Positions 3,096-40,600 of a stretch of 64,000 nt of DNA are shown piece by piece (the stretch's first letter is position 1; the number at the start of each line of letters is the position of its first letter). This DNA is from Cytophagales bacterium (GTDB lineage: Bacteria > Bacteroidota > Bacteroidia > Cytophagales > Thermoflexibacteraceae): contig JAAFJS010000003.1 in NCBI GenBank assembly GCA_013298985.1, positions 6,334-70,333 on the forward strand, in the 5' to 3' direction. The notes under the pieces were generated by a model that was not told where the DNA came from, searched no databases, and worked only from the letters and a program-made list of their open reading frames with translations. The position numbers and the translations under genes were made by a program.

Positions 3096-3179
3096 CCTCC
3101 CCCTGCACCCTCTTGAGGGGGAGAAATACAGGCTGTTTCCCCCTTTGGAGGCGCAATGCACATTGGGGGTAGGGGGAGG
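3096..3179. repeat. GC-rich palindromic REP/REPIN-like element
   Basis: Terminal inverted repeat CCTCCCCCT (3096-3104) / AGGGGGAGG (3171-3179) and internal AGGGGGA (3116-3122) / TCCCCCT (3138-3144), in an AT-rich intergenic region. Confidence 0.75.
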
Positions 3180-3491
3180 AGAAGTTCTATGATATACAAT
3201 TTTTAACGTTTAAAAACAAATGTAAGGAAAAGAGAGGAGTAAAAGCAAAAAAATGAAGGGGCAAATTTGTGAGCGTCGCACCGTTTTGGGGAAGTATCAA
3301 ACTTTTTTAAAAAAGTTTTGACTCTTTACTTTTTTCGGAAGTATCAAAAATTGAAATTTCACATGATTTTTTACTTTTATTTCTTTTCACACAACTATTT
3401 TTGCACATATTTCGTTTTTATGATAAAGTAAAAATCAAAATTACTTAAACTTTTTGAAAATATTGAAAATTAAAGACATAAAACTACATTT

Positions 3492-4754: not shown

Positions 4755-5638
4755 TGACACCCATTCAACAGTTTTTGTACGATTTGATGACTCGCCAAGC
4801 TGACGAGAAGTCGCGTGTGTGGCTTGACCAAAAGCTCACCCAACTCACTCAGCAGTTTTCTAATCAGGCTTTTTACCTCACATTTGCTGCCGCACCGCGC
4901 TTTTTGGGCAAAAACCTTTTGGCTATCATGCCTGCTGATTTTGTAAAAGCGGAGGAGTTGTGTGCTGGATTTTCTCTTGAAAACTGGACAATGGACAGGG
5001 CTGCGCGAGTGCTGTTTATCACGCACTTACCTACAGAAAGCCCTGAAAATCACCTCGTTATTTTAGACAAACTTTTTCAAACCGCAGAGATAAATGAATT
5101 GGTTGCACTTTATTCTGCCCTGCCTTTGTTGCCTTTTCCAGCACAATACGTAAGCCGATGTGCAGAAGGCATCAGAACGAATATGACGGTGGTTTTTGAG
5201 GCGATTGCGCTGAATAATCCCTTTCCTGCGGCATATCTGACGGAGAATGCGTGGAATCAACTTTTTTTGAAAGCTATTTTCACAGGCAGGCAAATCGCTA
5301 AAATTCAAGGAGTTAGGCAGAGAGCTAATGCTACTTTAGCCCAAATATGCACTGATTATGCACACGAACGCTGGGCGGCGGGGCGCAAGGTAACGCCTGA
5401 ACTATGGATGCCGATTGGAGGTTTTGTGAATGAAATGGTTTTAGAGGATTTGAAAAGATTAAAGGAAAGTCCTAACGTACTTGAGCAACAAGCTCTGGCA
5501 TTGATTTGCTTGGAATCCACGCAGGAAAGCGCAAAGAAATTATTGGCACAGATGCCTTCGCTGAAAGAGGCAGCAGAAAAGAAAGCATTTTCTTGGAAAA
5601 GTATTTCGCAGCAGTGGCATCAGGAAAATCTAAGCTAA
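4751..5638 (+). CDS. eboA: EboA domain protein
   Basis: ALYSALPLL, EGIRTN, NPFPAAYLTENAWNQLFLKAIF and DYAHERWAAGRKVTPELW match EboA. The ATG at 4751 overlaps the menF TGA (ATGA). Confidence 0.8.
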   Translation: MMTPIQQFLYDLMTRQADEKSRVWLDQKLTQLTQQFSNQAFYLTFAAAPRFLGKNLLAIMPADFVKAEELCAGFSLENWTMDRAARVLFITHLPTESPENHLVILDKLFQTAEINELVALYSALPLLPFPAQYVSRCAEGIRTNMTVVFEAIALNNPFPAAYLTENAWNQLFLKAIFTGRQIAKIQGVRQRANATLAQICTDYAHERWAAGRKVTPELWMPIGGFVNEMVLEDLKRLKESPNVLEQQALALICLESTQESAKKLLAQMPSLKEAAEKKAFSWKSISQQWHQENLS

Positions 5639-5647
5639 AAACTATAT

Positions 5648-6025
5648 TTAAGCTGGTTTTGGTAAATACTTGGTGATGACAGACAAAATTTTCTCTTTGT
5701 CTATGGGCTTTACTACCAAATCGGTAAATTTATCAGAAAAAAATCCTTGCACCGCCTCATCTCCAGAGTAGGCGGTAACAGCAATAACGGGTAATTCCTT
5801 CAATGCGGGATTTTCACGCAGTTTTTGCAGTACGTCCAGTCCAGTCATTTGCTCGCTACCCAAATTAATATCCATCAATACCAAGTCATATTTGTTTTTT
5901 TCTAACATTTCTAACGCCTTCTGACCACTTGTTACGGTATCAGGGGTGCAAACGCTTTCAATAAATTTTTTCAGAACAATCACATTGATTGGATTATCCT
6001 CGACGATTAGCACCTTTGCTAACAT
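5648..6025 (-). CDS. stand-alone response regulator receiver (CheY-like)
   Basis: VLIVEDN, DLVLMDINL, PVIAVTA, KP motifs; 125 aa. Confidence 0.9.
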   Translation of the reverse strand: MLAKVLIVEDNPINVIVLKKFIESVCTPDTVTSGQKALEMLEKNKYDLVLMDINLGSEQMTGLDVLQKLRENPALKELPVIAVTAYSGDEAVQGFFSDKFTDLVVKPIDKEKILSVITKYLPKPA

Positions 6026-6075
6026 AATTTTATGAGATTAAAAATATGCCTGAGATTTTTAACTTATTTTGGTTG

Positions 6076-6185
6076 TCTGACAATTTTTGTGGCAGACTGA
6101 GTTTCTACGAGTTCCCCCCGCTAAAGCGAGGGGTTAGATTAACCCCTCGCTTTAGCGGGGGGAACTTTCCACAAAAATTGTCAGA
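6076..6185. mobile_element. nested inverted-repeat element (MITE-like ends around a REPIN-like doublet)
   Basis: Perfect 17-bp outer IR (6076-6092 / 6169-6185). Perfect 27-bp inner IR (6110-6136 / 6140-6166). Each inner arm is itself an imperfect hairpin, CCCCTCGC-TTTA-GCGGGGGG. Confidence 0.75.
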
Positions 6186-6255
6186 GTATCCTTGTTTTAA
6201 ACGCAAACATAAATAATAATACTAAGCCTTGCAAATTTGTATTGGAGTTTAATAA

Positions 6256-6358
6256 TAGACTTCTTGCAAAAGTGTTTTTTATCGCCTCTCCCGTGCGACG
6301 GTCGCCTTAGTCCCTCTCCTGCTGAGAGGGAAAAATTGCTACTTTCGCAAGAAGTCTA
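6256..6358. mobile_element. MITE-like element with 18-bp TIRs
   Basis: TAGACTTCTTGCAAAAGT (6256-6273) / ACTTTCGCAAGAAGTCTA (6341-6358), 1 mismatch. It starts and ends in TA and encloses a GC-rich hairpin. Confidence 0.75.
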
Positions 6359-6481
6359 ATACTCTTTGATTACCAATGGCATATTTGCTTTGTTTTTGTA
6401 TAATATCCAAAAACTATTTGCTAATTTGCAAAGGCAGTTTTTCATGGTATGGTAAAAATAAGGTCTATTCGTTTTTGATTT

Positions 6482-6967
6482 ATGCGCTTTCTATTTATTA
6501 TTTTATTTTGGGGGTGCGCCTCCCACACTTTTGCTCAGAACGAGGTGATTTACAAGGAAATGTATATCCTCTACTATGAAGAAGGGAAAATTCCCTGCTC
6601 GAAGGGCTTGAGATGGGACAATGGTAAGTGCTATTACCTGCGCTGCGAGTACGGTACGGAGGCGCAAAAAAAGAAACTGGGGAATGAAATAGAAATCACG
6701 ACCAATCTGGAAGTCAGAAATTTGTTTAAAAACATGACTATCAGTGATTTAGAATGGCTCAGTGGTATTACTTCCTTTCATCAAAAAAAGTATAAATGCA
6801 AAGGCACAAGCAAAATGGAATTTTCAGTTACCCTCAAAGACAAGGGAAAAAAGAAAACGACACGCTATGACTTTCCCCTCACCCAGAACTGTGAAGGAAA
6901 AAGCCCCTTTGATTTGGCTCAAAAGTTAAATATGATTTTTAACAAGCTGGCAAAGGAATTTCCTTAG
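6482..6967 (+). CDS. hypothetical secreted protein
   Basis: 161-aa ORF with signal peptide MRFLFIILFWGCASHTFAQ and several Cys; no family recognised. Confidence 0.65.
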   Translation: MRFLFIILFWGCASHTFAQNEVIYKEMYILYYEEGKIPCSKGLRWDNGKCYYLRCEYGTEAQKKKLGNEIEITTNLEVRNLFKNMTISDLEWLSGITSFHQKKYKCKGTSKMEFSVTLKDKGKKKTTRYDFPLTQNCEGKSPFDLAQKLNMIFNKLAKEFP

Positions 6968-7037
6968 CTTTTTGTATGTTATCTAATTAAAAAATGCTCA
7001 AATAACAATTTTACAGAATTATAAATTAAATACAAAT

Positions 7038-37628: not shown

Positions 37629-40600
37629 CTACATATTCCTTCTATACTGCCCACCAACTTCATATAATGCCTGACTCATTTGCCCCAAAGAACAGACTTT
37701 TGCCGCTTCCATCAGACTTTCAAAGAGGTTTCCGTTATTTATTGCGGTGCTTTGTAAGTTTTTTAGCGCAATTTTTGCCTCTTTTTCGTGGAAAGCATGG
37801 AAACTGTTTAAGTCCTTGATAGTGAGTTCTTTTTCTTCGGTGGTACTTCTGATAACCTCTTTGGGCAGTACCGTAGGCGAGCCTTGCGGGTCAAGAAAAG
37901 TATTAACACCGATAATGGGTAGCTTGCCTTCGTGTTTGAGGGTTTCGTAGTACATACTTTCTTCTTGGATTTTGCTGCGTTGGTACATTCTTTCCATTGC
38001 GCCGAGTACGCCGCCGCGTTCGGAAATATTCCTAAACTCCTGCAAAACAGCTTGTTCTACTAATTCTGTTAATTCATCTATAATGAAAGCACCTTGTAAC
38101 GGATTCTCATTTTTTGACAAGCCCAATTCATGGTTAATTATCAACTGAATTGCCAAGGCTCGTCTTACACTTTCTTCGGTAGGGGTGGTGATAGCCTCAT
38201 CATAAGCGTTGGTATGCAGAGAGTTACAGTTGTCATAAATCGCATAAAGTGCTTGCAAAGTGGTTCTTATATCATTGAAAGCGATTTCTTGTGCGTGCAA
38301 ACTGCGCCCCGAAGTTTGGATATGATATTTGAGTTTTTGGCTGCGGTCGTTGCCTTTGTACTTGTATTTGATGGCTTTTGCCCAGATTCGGCGAGCTACT
38401 CTGCCCATGACAGAATATTCGGGGTCCATGCCATTGGAAAAAAAGAAAGACAAATTGGGTGCAAAATCGTCAATATTCATGCCTCTGCTTAGGTAATACT
38501 CGACAAAAGTAAAGCCATTGGAAAGGGTAAAAGCTAACTGTGAAATAGGATTTGCGCCCGCCTCTGCAATGTGGTAACCTGAAATAGAAACAGAATAAAA
38601 ATTCTTAACTTGTTGATTGACAAAATATTGCTGAATATCGCCCATCATTCGCAAGGCAAATTCGGTACTGAAAATGCAGGTGTTTTGCGCTTGGTCTTCT
38701 TTGAGAATATCTGCCTGAACCGTTCCACGAACTACTTGCAAGGTTTCTGCTTTTATTTTTTCATAAATCTCTTTATCAAGCACTTGCTCGCCTGTAACGC
38801 CCAAAAGTAGCAAACCTAAGCCGTCGTTACCTTCGGGGAGAGAGGCGTTGTATTGAGGTTGCCCCACCCGTAGCGACGGTCGCCCTAACCCCTCCCCAAC
38901 GGAGAGGGGAATATACTCCCTCCCAGAAGGGGAGGGCTGGAGTGGGGCGGAATAAATTGCTTGAATTTTCTTTTCTACTTCCTCCAACAATCCATTTTTC
39001 TTAATGTAAATTTCGCACTGCTGGTCTATGGCGGCATTCATAAAAAAAGCCAAAATCATAGGGGCGGGACCATTGATAGTCATTGAAACTGAGGTACTTG
39101 GGCTACACAGATTAAAACCAGAGTACAGTTTTTTTGCTTCGTCAATCGTAAAAATACTTACGCCAGAGTTGCCCACTTTTCCATAAATATCAGGGCGGTG
39201 GTCAGGATTTTCGCCATAAAGTGTAACAGAGTCAAAAGCAGTGGAAAGTCGCTTGGCAGGTAAGCCACTTGATACAAAGTGGAATCGCTTGTTGGTGCGC
39301 TCGGCATTTCCCTCGCCTGCAAACATACGCGCAGGGTCTTCGCCTTCGCGTTTGAGTGGGAAAACGCCCGCCGCATAAGGGAAGCTACCTGGCACATTTT
39401 CAGTGAGTAACCACTTTAATCTATCGCCCCAATCTTGGTATTTGGGCAGGGCTACTTTGGGGATTTTGAGGTGCGAAAGCGTTTCTGTATAAAGCTCTTG
39501 CGCTAAAATTTTATCACGAACTTTGAACTGATATTTTTCTGCGGTGTAAGTTTTTACTAAATCTTCCCAAGAAAAAAGCAGTTTTTTACATTCGTAGTCA
39601 AGTTGTTGTTCTAATTCATTGTATAATTGTTGGATTTGTTGGATTTGTTGGTTGTTGGTTGTTAGTTGTTGGATTGTTCCATTGAGTTGATACATTTTAC
39701 GCGCGATATTGCATTGATTTTCAACGAATTTGTCGTAATTATCGCTATTTTCTGCAATTTCTGCCAAGTAGCGCACGCGGTCAGGGGGAATGACAGCTAA
39801 TTGTTGGATTGTTGGATTGTTGGATTGTTCTTTTGGGCTATTAGTAGTCTTTTTTCCGTTGTCCGATTCCTCACTGACAACCCTTAAATTTACGTCTGTT
39901 TTTTTATCAATTTCCTCAATAATTTTTTCAAATAAAATATTCATTCCCAAGTCGTTGAACTGGCTGGCAATCGTACCGTAAACAGGCAAATCTTCATCTT
40001 TGCCTTCCCAATAGTTGCGGTTGCGACGGTACTGCTTTCTTACATCGCGGAGTGCGTCCAGCGAGCCTCTTTTGTCAAATTTATTGATGGCGATGAGGTC
40101 TGCAAAGTCGAGCATATCAATCTTTTCGAGTTGTGTAGCCGCGCCGTACTCGCTGGTCATCACGTAAAGAGAAACGTCGGCGTGTTCGGTAATTTCGGTA
40201 TCGGACTGTCCAATTCCCGAAGTTTCGATAATTATCAAGTCAAAACTTGCTGCTTTACAGATGTTTATGGCATCTCTGACATATTTGCTCAATGCCAGAT
40301 TGGACTGACGAGTCGCCAGCGAGCGCATATACACGCGAGGATGGTTGATGCTATTCATGCGGATACGGTCGCCAAGTAATGCGCCGCCCGTTTTGCGCTT
40401 AGAAGGGTCGACAGAAATAATTGCAATGGTCTGATTATCAGTATTTAGCAAAAATCTACGCACCAGTTCATCTACCAAAGAGGACTTGCCTGCGCCGCCT
40501 GTGCCTGTGATGCCAAGGACGGGGGTTCTTATTTGTTTGAAATTGTTTGAAGTTGTTTGAAGTTGCTCATTGTTAATTGATAGCTGTCCTTTGATTTTTT

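What the first reader, a model, noticed from the sequence alone, without database searches (positions are those of the whole stretch)
6256..6358. MITE whose cargo is the same palindromic motif found inside the mutase gene
Seen: 18-bp TIRs with TA at both ends enclose GCGACGGTCGCCTTAGTCCCTCTCCTGCTGAGAGGG (6295-6330). This aligns with GCGACGGTCGCCCTAACCCCTCCCCAACGGAGAGGGG (38873-38909), sharing 12 identical leading bases and the same hairpin, 32 kb away. Inference: hairpin units of one family travel both free and packaged in TIR-bounded MITEs. Together with 6076-6185, only 70 bp away, this suggests a modular 'TIR ends + REP cargo' element class and an insertion hotspot.
Basis: partly seen in the sequence, partly recalled or inferred. 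Interest (0 to 1): 0.62.

Follow-up and report, generated by a model that had tools for sequence, protein, structure and literature searches.

The report
IS5-type MITE with tiny palindromic insert
This is an ordinary miniature transposon (about 60 copies, moved by an IS5-family insertion sequence in the same Cytophagales genome); the one unusual part is a 14-base palindromic mini-insert that was added later and also turns up in other repeat families and inside a gene.

Summary
Window 6256-6358 has 17/18 complementary ends, and it shares GCGACGGTCGCC plus a CCCTCTCC/GAGAGGG-type hairpin with the repeat inside the mutase gene.

It is a MITE. The genome holds about 60 copies, 75-80% alike. The element proper is 6257-6357, flanked by a 3-bp A-N-T target duplication. 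Its ends match the perfect 20-bp inverted repeats of a 933-bp IS5-family IS elsewhere in the genome (contig C202, at least 3-4 copies).

The "cargo" is two separate things:
- **Hairpin core.** It is native: every copy has it, including copies in sister species. About 20 TIR-less units also carry it, and half of those sit in frame inside large genes.
- **The 12-mer.** It belongs to a 14-15-nt module, M1 (GT[A]GCGACGGTCGCC). M1 is a clean indel, present in 13 of 60 copies. No family-A copy examined in sister species has it. It is more conserved than its hosts (93% vs 75%). It also occurs in 11 of 53 copies of an unrelated MITE family.

A second module, M2, behaves the same way. How these modules spread is unknown; the closest parallel is the cyanobacterial SDRs.

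The "insertion hotspot" is not supported (P=0.26). The neighbouring element is a different, young MITE with an 8-bp duplication.

Overall this is a new member of known kinds, of moderate interest.

The parts
6254..6256 (+). Left copy of the 3-bp target-site duplication (AAT)
   Evidence: AAT lies directly on both sides of AGAC...GTCT. Across the family, the middle base is the same on both sides in 25/31 copies (p=4e-4). Exact 3-mers, including AGT/AGT, flank 7/12 sister-species copies.
6257..6357 (+). The MITE proper (family A), 101 bp, with no coding capacity
   Evidence: About 60 copies in the genome, 44 with both ends recognised. There are related copies in two sister species.
6256..6273 (+).
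   Evidence: 17/18 complementary to 6341-6358. Matches the IS end TAGACTTCTTGCGAAAGTAA in 17 of its first 18 bases.
6341..6358 (-). Right terminal inverted repeat (reverse complement TAGACTTCTTGCGAAAGT)
   Evidence: Read a little further in, it matches 19/20 of the 20-bp perfect TIR of the 933-bp IS at C202:2975-3907.
6284..6292 (+). C-rich left part of the native core (GCCTCTCCC)
   Evidence: Present in all family-A copies and in TIR-less units.
6293..6306 (+).
   Evidence: It is a clean 14-nt indel against the closest M1-less copies, C351 and C33, which are 93% alike elsewhere. It is in 13/60 family-A copies and 11/53 family-B copies.
6312..6330 (+). Native core hairpin CCCTCTCC-TGCT-GAGAGGG
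   Evidence: In essentially all family-A copies, including those of sister species. It is the centroid stem of the fold.
6358..6360 (+). Right copy of the 3-bp target-site duplication (AAT)
   Evidence: Same evidence as for 6254-6256.
6071..6190 (+). Neighbouring but unrelated 120-bp MITE (family N), with 17-bp TIRs and an inner perfect 27-nt inverted doublet
   Evidence: 38 full copies, mean 98.6% identity, flanked by 8-bp direct repeats. Here the repeats are CTTATTTT at 6063-6070 and CTTGTTTT at 6191-6198. The inner arm also lies upstream of a Y1_Tnp gene at C112:79917.
38861..38950 (+). TIR-less composite hairpin unit, in frame in the IcmF-like mutase gene (the gene is on the - strand). It carries M1 at 38870-38884 and a core-type hairpin at 38889-38909.
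   Evidence: Orthologues L016-L019 lack the segment. The same unit type occurs at C267:3075-3184.
3099..3206 (.). A copy of MITE family B in the window, without M1
   Evidence: BLAST of family-B queries hits C223:9432-9539.

Best explanation
Window 6257-6357 is a non-autonomous transposon (MITE). Its ends are those of a 933-bp IS5-family insertion sequence present in at least 3-4 near-identical copies in the same Cytophagales genome. The transposase of that IS (HTH_Tnp_4 plus a DDE domain, read across an A9 run) is inferred to have moved the MITE in trans, duplicating a 3-bp A-N-T target.

The family is old (copies 75-80% alike). Its interior is a G/C-rich hairpin unit that also exists without TIRs, often in frame inside large genes.

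It belongs to a 14-15-nt module, M1 (GT[A]GCGACGGTCGCC). M1 was added later, precisely, into the C-run on the C-rich arm just 5' of the hairpin. The same module sits at the equivalent site in an unrelated MITE family, in a third family, and in TIR-less units such as the one in the mutase.

Once inside a MITE, M1 travels with it: the copies C223, C37 and C79 share M1 plus diagnostic flanks, and C13 and C321 share a variant M1.

My preferred mechanism for the spread of M1, and of a sister module M2, is short-patch template switching or gene conversion between the similar C-rich hairpin arms during replication or repair. That step is inferred, not shown.

Shown: the MITE family, the IS partner, the 3-bp duplication, the clean indel, and the distribution. 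Inferred: trans-mobilisation, the direction of the M1 change (a gain), and how M1 spreads.
For: - **MITE and IS partner.** About 45 TIR-bounded copies were found by pattern and 60 loci by BLAST. The IS is at C202:2975-3907 with a perfect 20-bp TIR. It matches HTH_Tnp_4 (1e-13) and DDE_Tnp_4/DDE_Tnp_1, and NF033581 'IS5 family transposase' at 139.5 bits against a cut-off of 140. Five IS ends sit at contig ends at 98-100% identity.
- **Target duplication.** The middle base is equal on both sides in 25/31 copies (p=4e-4). Exact AAT, ATT or AGT pairs flank 7/12 sister-species copies.
- **M1 is secondary.** It is a clean 14-nt indel against copies that are 93% alike elsewhere. It is in 13/60 family-A copies, spread over both TIR sublineages (TTGC and TTTC) and both core sublineages. 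All 12 family-A copies fetched from two sister species lack it. None of the 13 exact 12-mer sites in sister species is known to lie in a family-A MITE; the 12 sites read are not, and G002:C4:173 was not fetched.
- **M1 conservation.** M1 columns are 93% identical pairwise, against 75% for the rest of the element, 80% for the TIRs and 85% for the hairpin.
- **M1 in other repeats.** It is in 11/53 full copies of family B at CCTCCC|CC, on one arm only.
- **M1 is confined to one genus.** The 12-mer occurs 22, 8, 4 and 1 times in the four genomes of the genus, 0 times in six genomes of other genera, and 0 times for the reversed control. The 16-mer has 0 hits in 199 other genomes of the order.
- **M2 behaves alike.** It has 33 sites in G000. 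One family-A copy in G001 carries M2 at the same spot. In G001 it forms tandem arrays of period 14.
Against: - No empty site was recovered for any copy. No paralogous empty sites exist, and the closest genomes are too diverged. Mobility and the 3-bp duplication therefore rest on flank statistics.
- The one complete IS copy is flanked by AAT and ATT, which are not identical.
- The IS reading frame is split at an A9 run. This could be programmed slippage, a mutation or an assembly error.
- Family-A copies are old, so current activity is doubtful.
- The flanks of M1-bearing copies look native to family A, with no co-converted neighbouring bases. That fits a precise insertion better than the gene-conversion route I prefer.
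- The direction of change (gain rather than repeated loss) rests on 12 sampled sister-species copies and on conservation, not on a dated tree.
Confidence: 0.7

Rival explanations
1. M1 (and M2) are ultra-small mobile elements in their own right. A dedicated enzyme would insert them site-specifically into C-runs next to G/C hairpins, as proposed for cyanobacterial SDRs. MITEs and intragenic units would merely be their preferred landing sites.
For: - The indel is precise, 14 nt, with native flanks on both sides.
- M1 is much better conserved than its hosts.
- The module is found in at least four host repeat types: families A and B, TIR-less units, and a third family (here called F) with ends CTTTTGCCCCTATCTAAATCTTTCC. 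It always lies between CC(C) and CC.
- Both length forms, GTG and GTAG, occur in both family A and family B.
- For SDR5, precise insertion at a fixed short target is reported (PMC4390886).
Against: - No candidate enzyme was found, and no Y1 transposase gene lies next to an M1 site.
- M1 is never seen in unique DNA.
- 14 nt is very small for recognition by a transposase.
- Tandem arrays of M2 with period 14 point to slippage-type dynamics.
- No larger element has M1 half-sites as its ends.
Confidence: 0.25
2. M1 is ancestral to the MITE. The element would have been built by IS ends capturing a free hairpin unit that already held the 12-mer. Most copies would then have lost the palindrome by slippage deletion.
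For: - Short palindromes flanked by C-runs are prone to deletion (general knowledge).
- TIR-less units with M1 exist in all four genomes of the genus.
- The core of the MITE is homologous to those units over about 40 nt.
Against: - 47/60 copies lack M1, with uniform junctions.
- All 12 sampled sister-species family-A copies lack it.
- M1 is better conserved than the TIRs. That would be odd for the oldest part of the element.
- The presence/absence polymorphism cuts across sublineages.
Confidence: 0.1
3. The hairpin and/or M1 are REP-type sequences moved by one of the genome's RAYT-like Y1 transposases, acting on single-stranded DNA.
For: - The genome has 5 full-length and 3 partial Y1_Tnp genes, each flanked by hairpin repeats.
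- The 15-nt form of M1 starts with GTAG, the tag of the largest REP superfamily (PMC3733652).
- One G001 unit has M1 on both arms, like a REP doublet.
- The neighbouring MITE's inner doublet does match a repeat next to a Y1_Tnp gene.
Against: - The M1 stem is 4-5 bp, against 6-13 bp for tagged REPs.
- The window copy has GTG, not GTAG.
- No in-context M1 lies within 3 kb of seven of the eight Y1_Tnp loci. The one exception is about 2.9 kb away on C108.
- The repeats that do flank those genes are other sequences.
Confidence: 0.08
4. M1 is a functional site, such as an operator or a methylation or restriction-related palindrome. It would be kept by selection and arise repeatedly, rather than being copied.
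For: It is an 11-bp near-perfect palindrome, well conserved, as HIP-type motifs are (PMC4390886).
Against: - There are only about 30 copies, all inside repeats and none in promoters of unique genes.
- The flanking GT[A] and CC are conserved too.
- Independent origin of an identical 14-15-mer about 30 times is not credible.
- It occurs inside coding sequence in two species.
Confidence: 0.03

Closest known systems
Bacterial MITEs that share ends with an IS, for example Correia/NEMIS elements of Neisseria and RUP of Streptococcus pneumoniae (from memory)
   Same: About 100 bp, terminal inverted repeats, a short A/T-rich target duplication, tens of dispersed intergenic copies, no ORF, and size variants that differ by an internal segment.
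   Different: Here the partner is an identified IS5-family IS in the same genome. The duplication is 3-bp A-N-T. The size variants differ by a 14-nt module that is shared with unrelated repeat families.
Small dispersed repeats (SDR4-6) of Nostoc (Elhai et al. 2008, Genome Res 18:1484). The paper is not held in the library, so it is known here from memory and through PMC4390886 and PMC3116915.
   Same: Very short, highly conserved modules found precisely inserted in other repeats, with otherwise matching copies that lack them. The mechanism is unknown.
   Different: M1 and M2 are 14-15 nt, whereas SDRs are 21-27 nt (from memory). The host is a Cytophagales bacterium (Bacteroidota) without HIP1. 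The target is a C-run beside a G/C hairpin. M2 also forms tandem arrays.
Rickettsia palindromic elements (RPE), and intragenic REPs (PMC3733652 abstract)
   Same: The TIR-less hairpin units sit in frame in variable loops of conserved genes such as the mutase. About 10 of 20 units lie in ORFs of 496-2176 aa.
   Different: They are shorter (about 40-90 bp) and G/C-rich in an A/T-rich genome. They share their core with a TIR-bounded MITE family.
GTAG-tagged REPs and REPINs moved by RAYTs (PMC3733652, PMC3116915)
   Same: The 15-nt form of M1 begins with GTAG followed by a palindrome, and the genome has several RAYT-like genes.
   Different: The stem is only 4-5 bp, there is no adjacency to any RAYT gene, and M1 is embedded in other repeats rather than standing alone.
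Modular mosaic repeats: BOX elements of S. pneumoniae and BIMEs of E. coli (from memory)
   Same: Repeats built from interchangeable short modules, with variable module number.
   Different: Those have no transposon-type TIRs with an IS partner, and their modules are larger (BOX boxB is about 45 nt).

Membership tests
MITE (non-autonomous DNA transposon) | Small size, no coding capacity | tested here: met
   The element is 101-103 bp. No ORF of 50 aa or more lies within it.
MITE (non-autonomous DNA transposon) | Terminal inverted repeats | tested here: met
   The ends are 17/18 complementary and conserved across the family.
MITE (non-autonomous DNA transposon) | Target-site duplication | tested here: met
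   A 3-bp A-N-T duplication, AAT/AAT here. The middle base is equal in 25/31 copies (p=4e-4). 7/12 sister-species copies have exact repeats, including AGT/AGT. A 2-bp TA reading is less well supported.
MITE (non-autonomous DNA transposon) | Many dispersed copies | tested here: met
   About 60 loci on separate contigs, with 91% of their bases outside long ORFs.
MITE (non-autonomous DNA transposon) | Ends shared with an autonomous element that encodes a transposase | tested here: met
   The 933-bp IS at C202 has the TIR TAGACTTCTTGCGAAAGTAA, and the MITE's right end matches 19/20. HTH_Tnp_4 and DDE domains are present.
MITE (non-autonomous DNA transposon) | Direct evidence of movement (empty sites, insertion polymorphism) | tested here: inconclusive
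   No paralogous empty site was found. The flanks are not syntenic in the sister species.
IS5 family (for the partner IS) | DDE transposase of the IS5 type | tested here: met
   PF13359 at 2.5e-17 and PF01609 at 9e-16. NF033581 scores 139.5 bits against a cut-off of 140 on a protein joined by hand across the A9 run.
REP / REPIN (RAYT-mobilised) | Unpaired GTAG (or CGTC) tag next to a stem of 6-13 bp (PMC3733652) | tested here: not met
   The tag is present only in the 15-nt form (the window copy has GTG). The stem is 4-5 bp.
REP / REPIN (RAYT-mobilised) | The same repeat flanks a RAYT gene | tested here: not met
   The eight Y1_Tnp loci are flanked by other hairpins. M1 is not adjacent to any of them.
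SDR-type mini-inserts (Elhai 2008) | A short module, far better conserved than its surroundings, precisely inserted in repeats that also exist without it | tested here: met
   93% against 75% identity. Clean 14-nt indel. Present in 13/60 and 11/53 copies of two host families.
SDR-type mini-inserts (Elhai 2008) | Length of 21-27 nt and a cyanobacterial host with a HIP1-linked target (from memory and PMC4390886) | tested here: not met
   The modules are 14-15 nt. The host is a Cytophagales bacterium. GCGATCGC occurs 0 times in the genome.
RPE-like intragenic palindromic elements (for the mutase unit) | A palindromic repeat in frame in a conserved gene, absent from orthologues | tested here: met
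   The insert is absent from L016-L019. It folds with z of about -3. Ten further units lie in ORFs of 496 aa or more.

The most novel reading that the evidence does not exclude
M1 and M2 are a class of 14-15-nt 'nano-elements' in Bacteroidota. They would be inserted precisely into C-runs beside G/C hairpins by a dedicated mechanism that is still unknown. They would then ride on MITEs and on intragenic palindromic units. This would be an analogue, in a second phylum, of the unexplained cyanobacterial SDRs, with sister species that differ in copy number (22, 8, 4 and 1) available for comparison.
Probability: 0.25. Interest if true: 0.65.

Novelty: new member of a known kind. Interest (0 to 1): 0.36.

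Why it matters
The MITE itself is routine, though it documents an IS5-family IS/MITE pair with a 3-bp A-N-T duplication in a little-studied Cytophagales lineage.

The more useful result is the layered structure. An IS supplies the ends. A G/C hairpin unit supplies the interior, and the same unit colonises coding loops. A 14-nt module then moves among these hairpin units. Sequences this small that still spread are poorly understood, and the cyanobacterial SDR problem has been open since 2008.

This genus has four genomes with very different M1 and M2 loads, and tandem M2 arrays in one of them. That makes it a tractable comparative system for asking whether such modules spread by insertion or by template switching.

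For annotation, the result is a warning. P/G-rich loops in housekeeping proteins of this group can be repeat-derived.

Tried and rejected
- **Paralogous empty sites.** Joining the flanks of 45 copies and running BLAST against the genome found none.
- **Orthologous empty site for this locus.** The two flanking genes lie on different contigs in the sister species and are only 69-78% identical.
- **Palindromic A-W-TA-W-T target with a 2-bp TA duplication.** This was my first reading. I dropped it because the bases next to TA are equal, not complementary, on the two sides.
- **M1 as the footprint or the ends of a larger element.** No pairs of half-sites bound a repeated element.
- **M1 as a derivative of the GTAG-tagged REP family.** That family is [5-bp hairpin]GACCGYTTTGTAG, with 37 copies. 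It shares 9 nt with only one stem variant, which is probably chance.
- **RAYT adjacency.** Not found.
- **Known RNA family.** There is no credible Rfam match in 5500-7000. The best hits are far below gathering scores and lie on the neighbouring element.
- **Sigma-70 promoter and terminator scan.** Nothing lies within the MITE. The scan is of limited meaning in Bacteroidota.
- **Insertion hotspot.** Not significant.
- **Primary SDR paper.** Elhai et al. 2008 is not held in the library.

Full report
**1. The observation**

- Positions 6256-6273 and 6341-6358 are 17/18 complementary.
- GCGACGGTCGCC starts at 6295 and at 38873. Each is followed by a C-rich/G-rich hairpin: CCCTCTCC-TGCT-GAGAGGG and CCCCTCCCC-AACG-GAGAGGGG.
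- The similarity also runs 5-6 bases to the left (CCCGT[A]G).

It is not chance.
- The 12-mer occurs 22 times in this 6.06-Mb, 39% GC genome. Its reversed control occurs 0 times in ten genomes.
- The TIR 12-mer TAGACTTCTTGC occurs 42 times exactly.
- As single-stranded DNA the element folds at z = -5.0 and -5.7 against shuffles.
- No Rfam family matches it.

**2. Organism and setting**

The window is C223:6334-70333 of a 383-contig genome. The closest named relatives of its IcmF-like mutase are Cytophagales and Microscillaceae MAGs at 72% identity.

The element lies in the 456-bp spacer between two divergent genes. One is a receiver-domain gene (5648-6025, - strand; PF00072). The other is an ORF of 161 aa with no Pfam match (6482-6967, + strand).

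**3. It is a MITE with an identified partner IS**

Pattern and BLAST searches give about 60 loci of one family ('family A'). 44 of them have both ends. Most are 85-92 bp, and a subset is 97-104 bp. Copies are only 75-80% alike, so the family is old.

Unpaired ends led to a 933-bp element at C202:2975-3907.
- Its inverted repeats are a perfect 20 bp, TAGACTTCTTGCGAAAGTAA. The MITE's right end matches 19 of these 20 bases.
- It encodes HTH_Tnp_4 and DDE_Tnp_4/DDE_Tnp_1 domains.
- It scores 139.5 bits against NF033581 'IS5 family transposase', whose cut-off is 140.
- The frame is split at an A9 run.
- Five further IS ends lie at contig ends at 98-100% identity, so there are at least 3-4 copies.

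The same ends also bracket other interiors in this genome (C381, C43, C63, C172) and in another genus of the family.

**4. Target duplication**

Anchoring on GACTTCTTGC...GCAAGAAGTC, the flanks read a-w-T-A | GAC...GTC | T-A-w-t.
- The base before the left TA equals the base after the right TA in 25/31 copies (binomial p=4e-4). It is not its complement.
- This fits a 3-bp A-N-T duplication flanking AGAC...GTCT.
- Among sister-species copies, 7 of 12 have exact 3-bp repeats, including two with AGT/AGT.
- In the window the repeats are AAT (6254-6256) and AAT (6358-6360).
- The one complete IS copy has AAT and ATT, which is a caveat.
- No other direct repeats flank the elements.

**5. The 'cargo' is two things of different age**

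The alignment of family A shows that every copy has GCCTC(A/T)CCC...CCCTCTCC-NNNN-GAGAGGG. Only 13 of 60 copies carry an extra 14-15 nt, GT[A]GCGACGGTCGCC, which I call M1.

Against its closest M1-less relatives (C351 and C33, 93% identical elsewhere), the window copy differs by one clean 14-nt indel at 6293-6306.

M1-bearing copies occur in both TIR sublineages (TTGC...GCAA and TTTC...GAAA) and in both core sublineages (CTTAGTCCC and CCTGCCC).

Within M1-bearing copies, the M1 columns are 93% identical pairwise. The rest of the element is 75% identical, the TIRs 80% and the hairpin 85%.

Some M1-bearing copies clearly descend from each other. C223, C37 and C79 are 90-95% alike. C13 and C321 share the variant GCGAAGGTCGC. 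So the module is carried along when the MITE transposes.

**6. Sister species**
- Nine family-A copies from G003 and two of three from G001 lack any insert at that position. The third G001 copy has a different 15-nt insert there, CAGTTGCACTGCGCC, which I call M2.
- The M1 12-mer occurs 22, 8, 4 and 1 times in the four genomes of the genus. It occurs 0 times in six genomes of other genera of the family.
- The 16-mer has no hit in 199 other genomes of the order.
- In the sister species, the M1 sites that I read lie in TIR-less hairpin units and in a third MITE family (here F, with ends CTTTTGCCCCTATCTAAATCTTTCC). None lies in family A.
- Entry of M1 into family A is therefore specific to this genome's lineage, and the M1-less form is ancestral.

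**7. M1 and M2 in other repeats**
- Outside family A, M1 lies in 11 of 53 full copies of an unrelated family ('family B'). These are 137-176 bp, with ends such as GGTGATGATTCTAATTGTATGATAACC and GGTAGTGCTTTCAAATGTATGATGCTCAAAA. M1 always sits at CCTCCC|CC and on one arm only.
- It is also in TIR-less units: the mutase, C267 and C174. It is in C309, which matches the ends of the third family (F).
- Both the GTG and the GTAG forms occur in both family A and family B.
- M2 has 33 sites in this genome, all in the same kind of C-run. It has 33 in G001, where it forms tandem arrays of period 14, up to six units long.
- No larger element has M1 half-sites as its ends.

**8. TIR-less units and genes**

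The core hairpin with its C-rich leader occurs at about 20 loci without TIRs. About 10 of these lie in open frames of 496-2176 aa and are read as P-S-P-x-x-G-E-G-like loops. The hosts include LeuRS-like and SMC-like proteins.

The mutase unit (about 38861-38950) is absent from orthologues L016-L019. It sits in a variable loop.

The G001 orthologue has its own M1-bearing insert a few codons away, on the other side of the conserved YN. That is an independent event.

An earlier follow-up note on the mutase reached the same RPE-like reading.

**9. REP/RAYT test**

The genome has five full and three partial Y1_Tnp genes. They are flanked by hairpin repeats of other sequence, and none is adjacent to M1.

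Tagged REPs have stems of 6-13 bp (PMC3733652). M1 has 4-5 bp. M1 therefore fails REP membership.

By contrast, the inner 27-nt arm of the neighbouring element does recur upstream of the Y1_Tnp gene at C112:79917.

**10. The neighbour and the 'hotspot'**

It has 8-bp direct repeats, 38 full copies and a mean identity of 98.6%. It belongs to a different, young family.

Across the genome, 4 of 60 family-A copies lie within 300 bp of a family-B or family-N copy. Random non-coding positions give 2.6 (P=0.26). There is no hotspot beyond the general confinement of MITEs to the roughly 13% of the genome outside long ORFs.

**11. Mechanism and comparison**
- Shown: the IS/MITE pair, the 3-bp duplication, the native hairpin core, the secondary 14-nt module, and its distribution.
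- Inferred: trans-mobilisation by the IS5-family transposase, and spread of M1 and M2 among similar C-rich hairpin arms. I favour template switching or short-patch conversion, because M1 is never in unique DNA and M2 forms slippage-like arrays. The unaltered flanks keep a dedicated insertion mechanism open (probability about 0.25).
- Closest known systems: IS-related bacterial MITEs; the SDR modules of Nostoc (Elhai 2008, seen only through PMC4390886 and PMC3116915); RPEs for the intragenic units; and modular BOX and BIME repeats.
- Nothing here falls outside those kinds.

**12. Limits**
- Elhai 2008 could not be read.
- No empty site was found.

Noticed in passing
window 6071-6190, and G000 C112:79560-79916: The neighbouring 120-bp MITE (8-bp target duplication, 38 full copies at 98.6% identity) holds a perfect inverted doublet. 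Its 27-nt arm, TAACCCCTCGCTTTAGCGGGGGGAACT, also occurs twice just upstream of a RAYT-like Y1_Tnp gene on contig C112. This looks like a REP doublet packaged inside transposon-type TIRs.
   Followed up: partly
G000 contigs C54, C86, C157, C174, C201, C317, C351, C356, C382, and window 38861-38950: About 10 of 20 TIR-less copies of the G/C hairpin unit lie in frame inside open frames of 496-2176 aa, including LeuRS-like and SMC-like proteins. They are read as P-S-P..G-E-G-type loops, an RPE-like colonisation of housekeeping genes.
   Followed up: partly
L128 (G001:C54:8720-8880), compared with window 38790-38975: The mutase orthologue of a sister species carries its own M1-bearing insert (..KYNSPSEGGGWATVATGEVLPEGNDG..). 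It lies on the other side of the conserved YN, a few codons from the insert in this genome. These are two independent insertions in the same loop.
   Followed up: partly
L123, L124, L127 (G001:C743:9424-9508, C25:8120-8190, C484:11-53): The 14-nt module M2 (CAGTTGCACTGCGC) forms head-to-tail arrays of 3-6 units in the sister species G001. In one case (L123) the array lies just downstream of an M1.
   Followed up: partly
G000 C202:2975-3907 (outside the window): The 933-bp IS5-family IS has its transposase frame split at an A9 run (CCCAAAAAAAAAGAC). This could be programmed slippage, a mutation or a homopolymer error. All assembled copies are 98-100% identical.
   Followed up: partly
G000, e.g. 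C76:13, C82:6140, C152:376, C210:4331, C260:2281, C301:1510, C321:20893, C342:11375: Another repeat family, with at least 14 copies, begins with a similar end, TAGACATCTTGCAGATTAAAAACGCCGTTAGGTG. It contains GAACTCCGTAGGAGTTCAATCGCAGCGGCGAACCGT. It may be a relative moved by a related IS.
   Followed up: no
G000 genome-wide, e.g. C328:25974-26300 and C112:80474: A GTAG-tagged REP family of 37 copies has the form [5-bp stem, 3-nt loop, 5-bp stem with compensatory variants]GACCGYTTTGTAGAAAA. It is clustered around the Y1_Tnp gene on C328.
   Followed up: partly
window 6338-6358 and family-A ends in general: The inner part of the TIR reads TACTTTCG or TACTTTTG facing outwards. This is close to the TAnnTTTG -7 box of Bacteroidota promoters (from memory), so the MITE or IS ends might drive outward transcription. 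There are no expression data.
   Followed up: no
L015:1001-4144 (Cytophagales MAG JAAFKA010000023.1): That mutase orthologue has two P/G-rich inserts (..PLTPEGGTDGITSKTPPSGDGGL.. and ..PLTPHRGNNSPLQGAGGLTPPSGGGG..). One lies in the same loop as here, which suggests similar repeat colonisation in a more distant relative.
   Followed up: no
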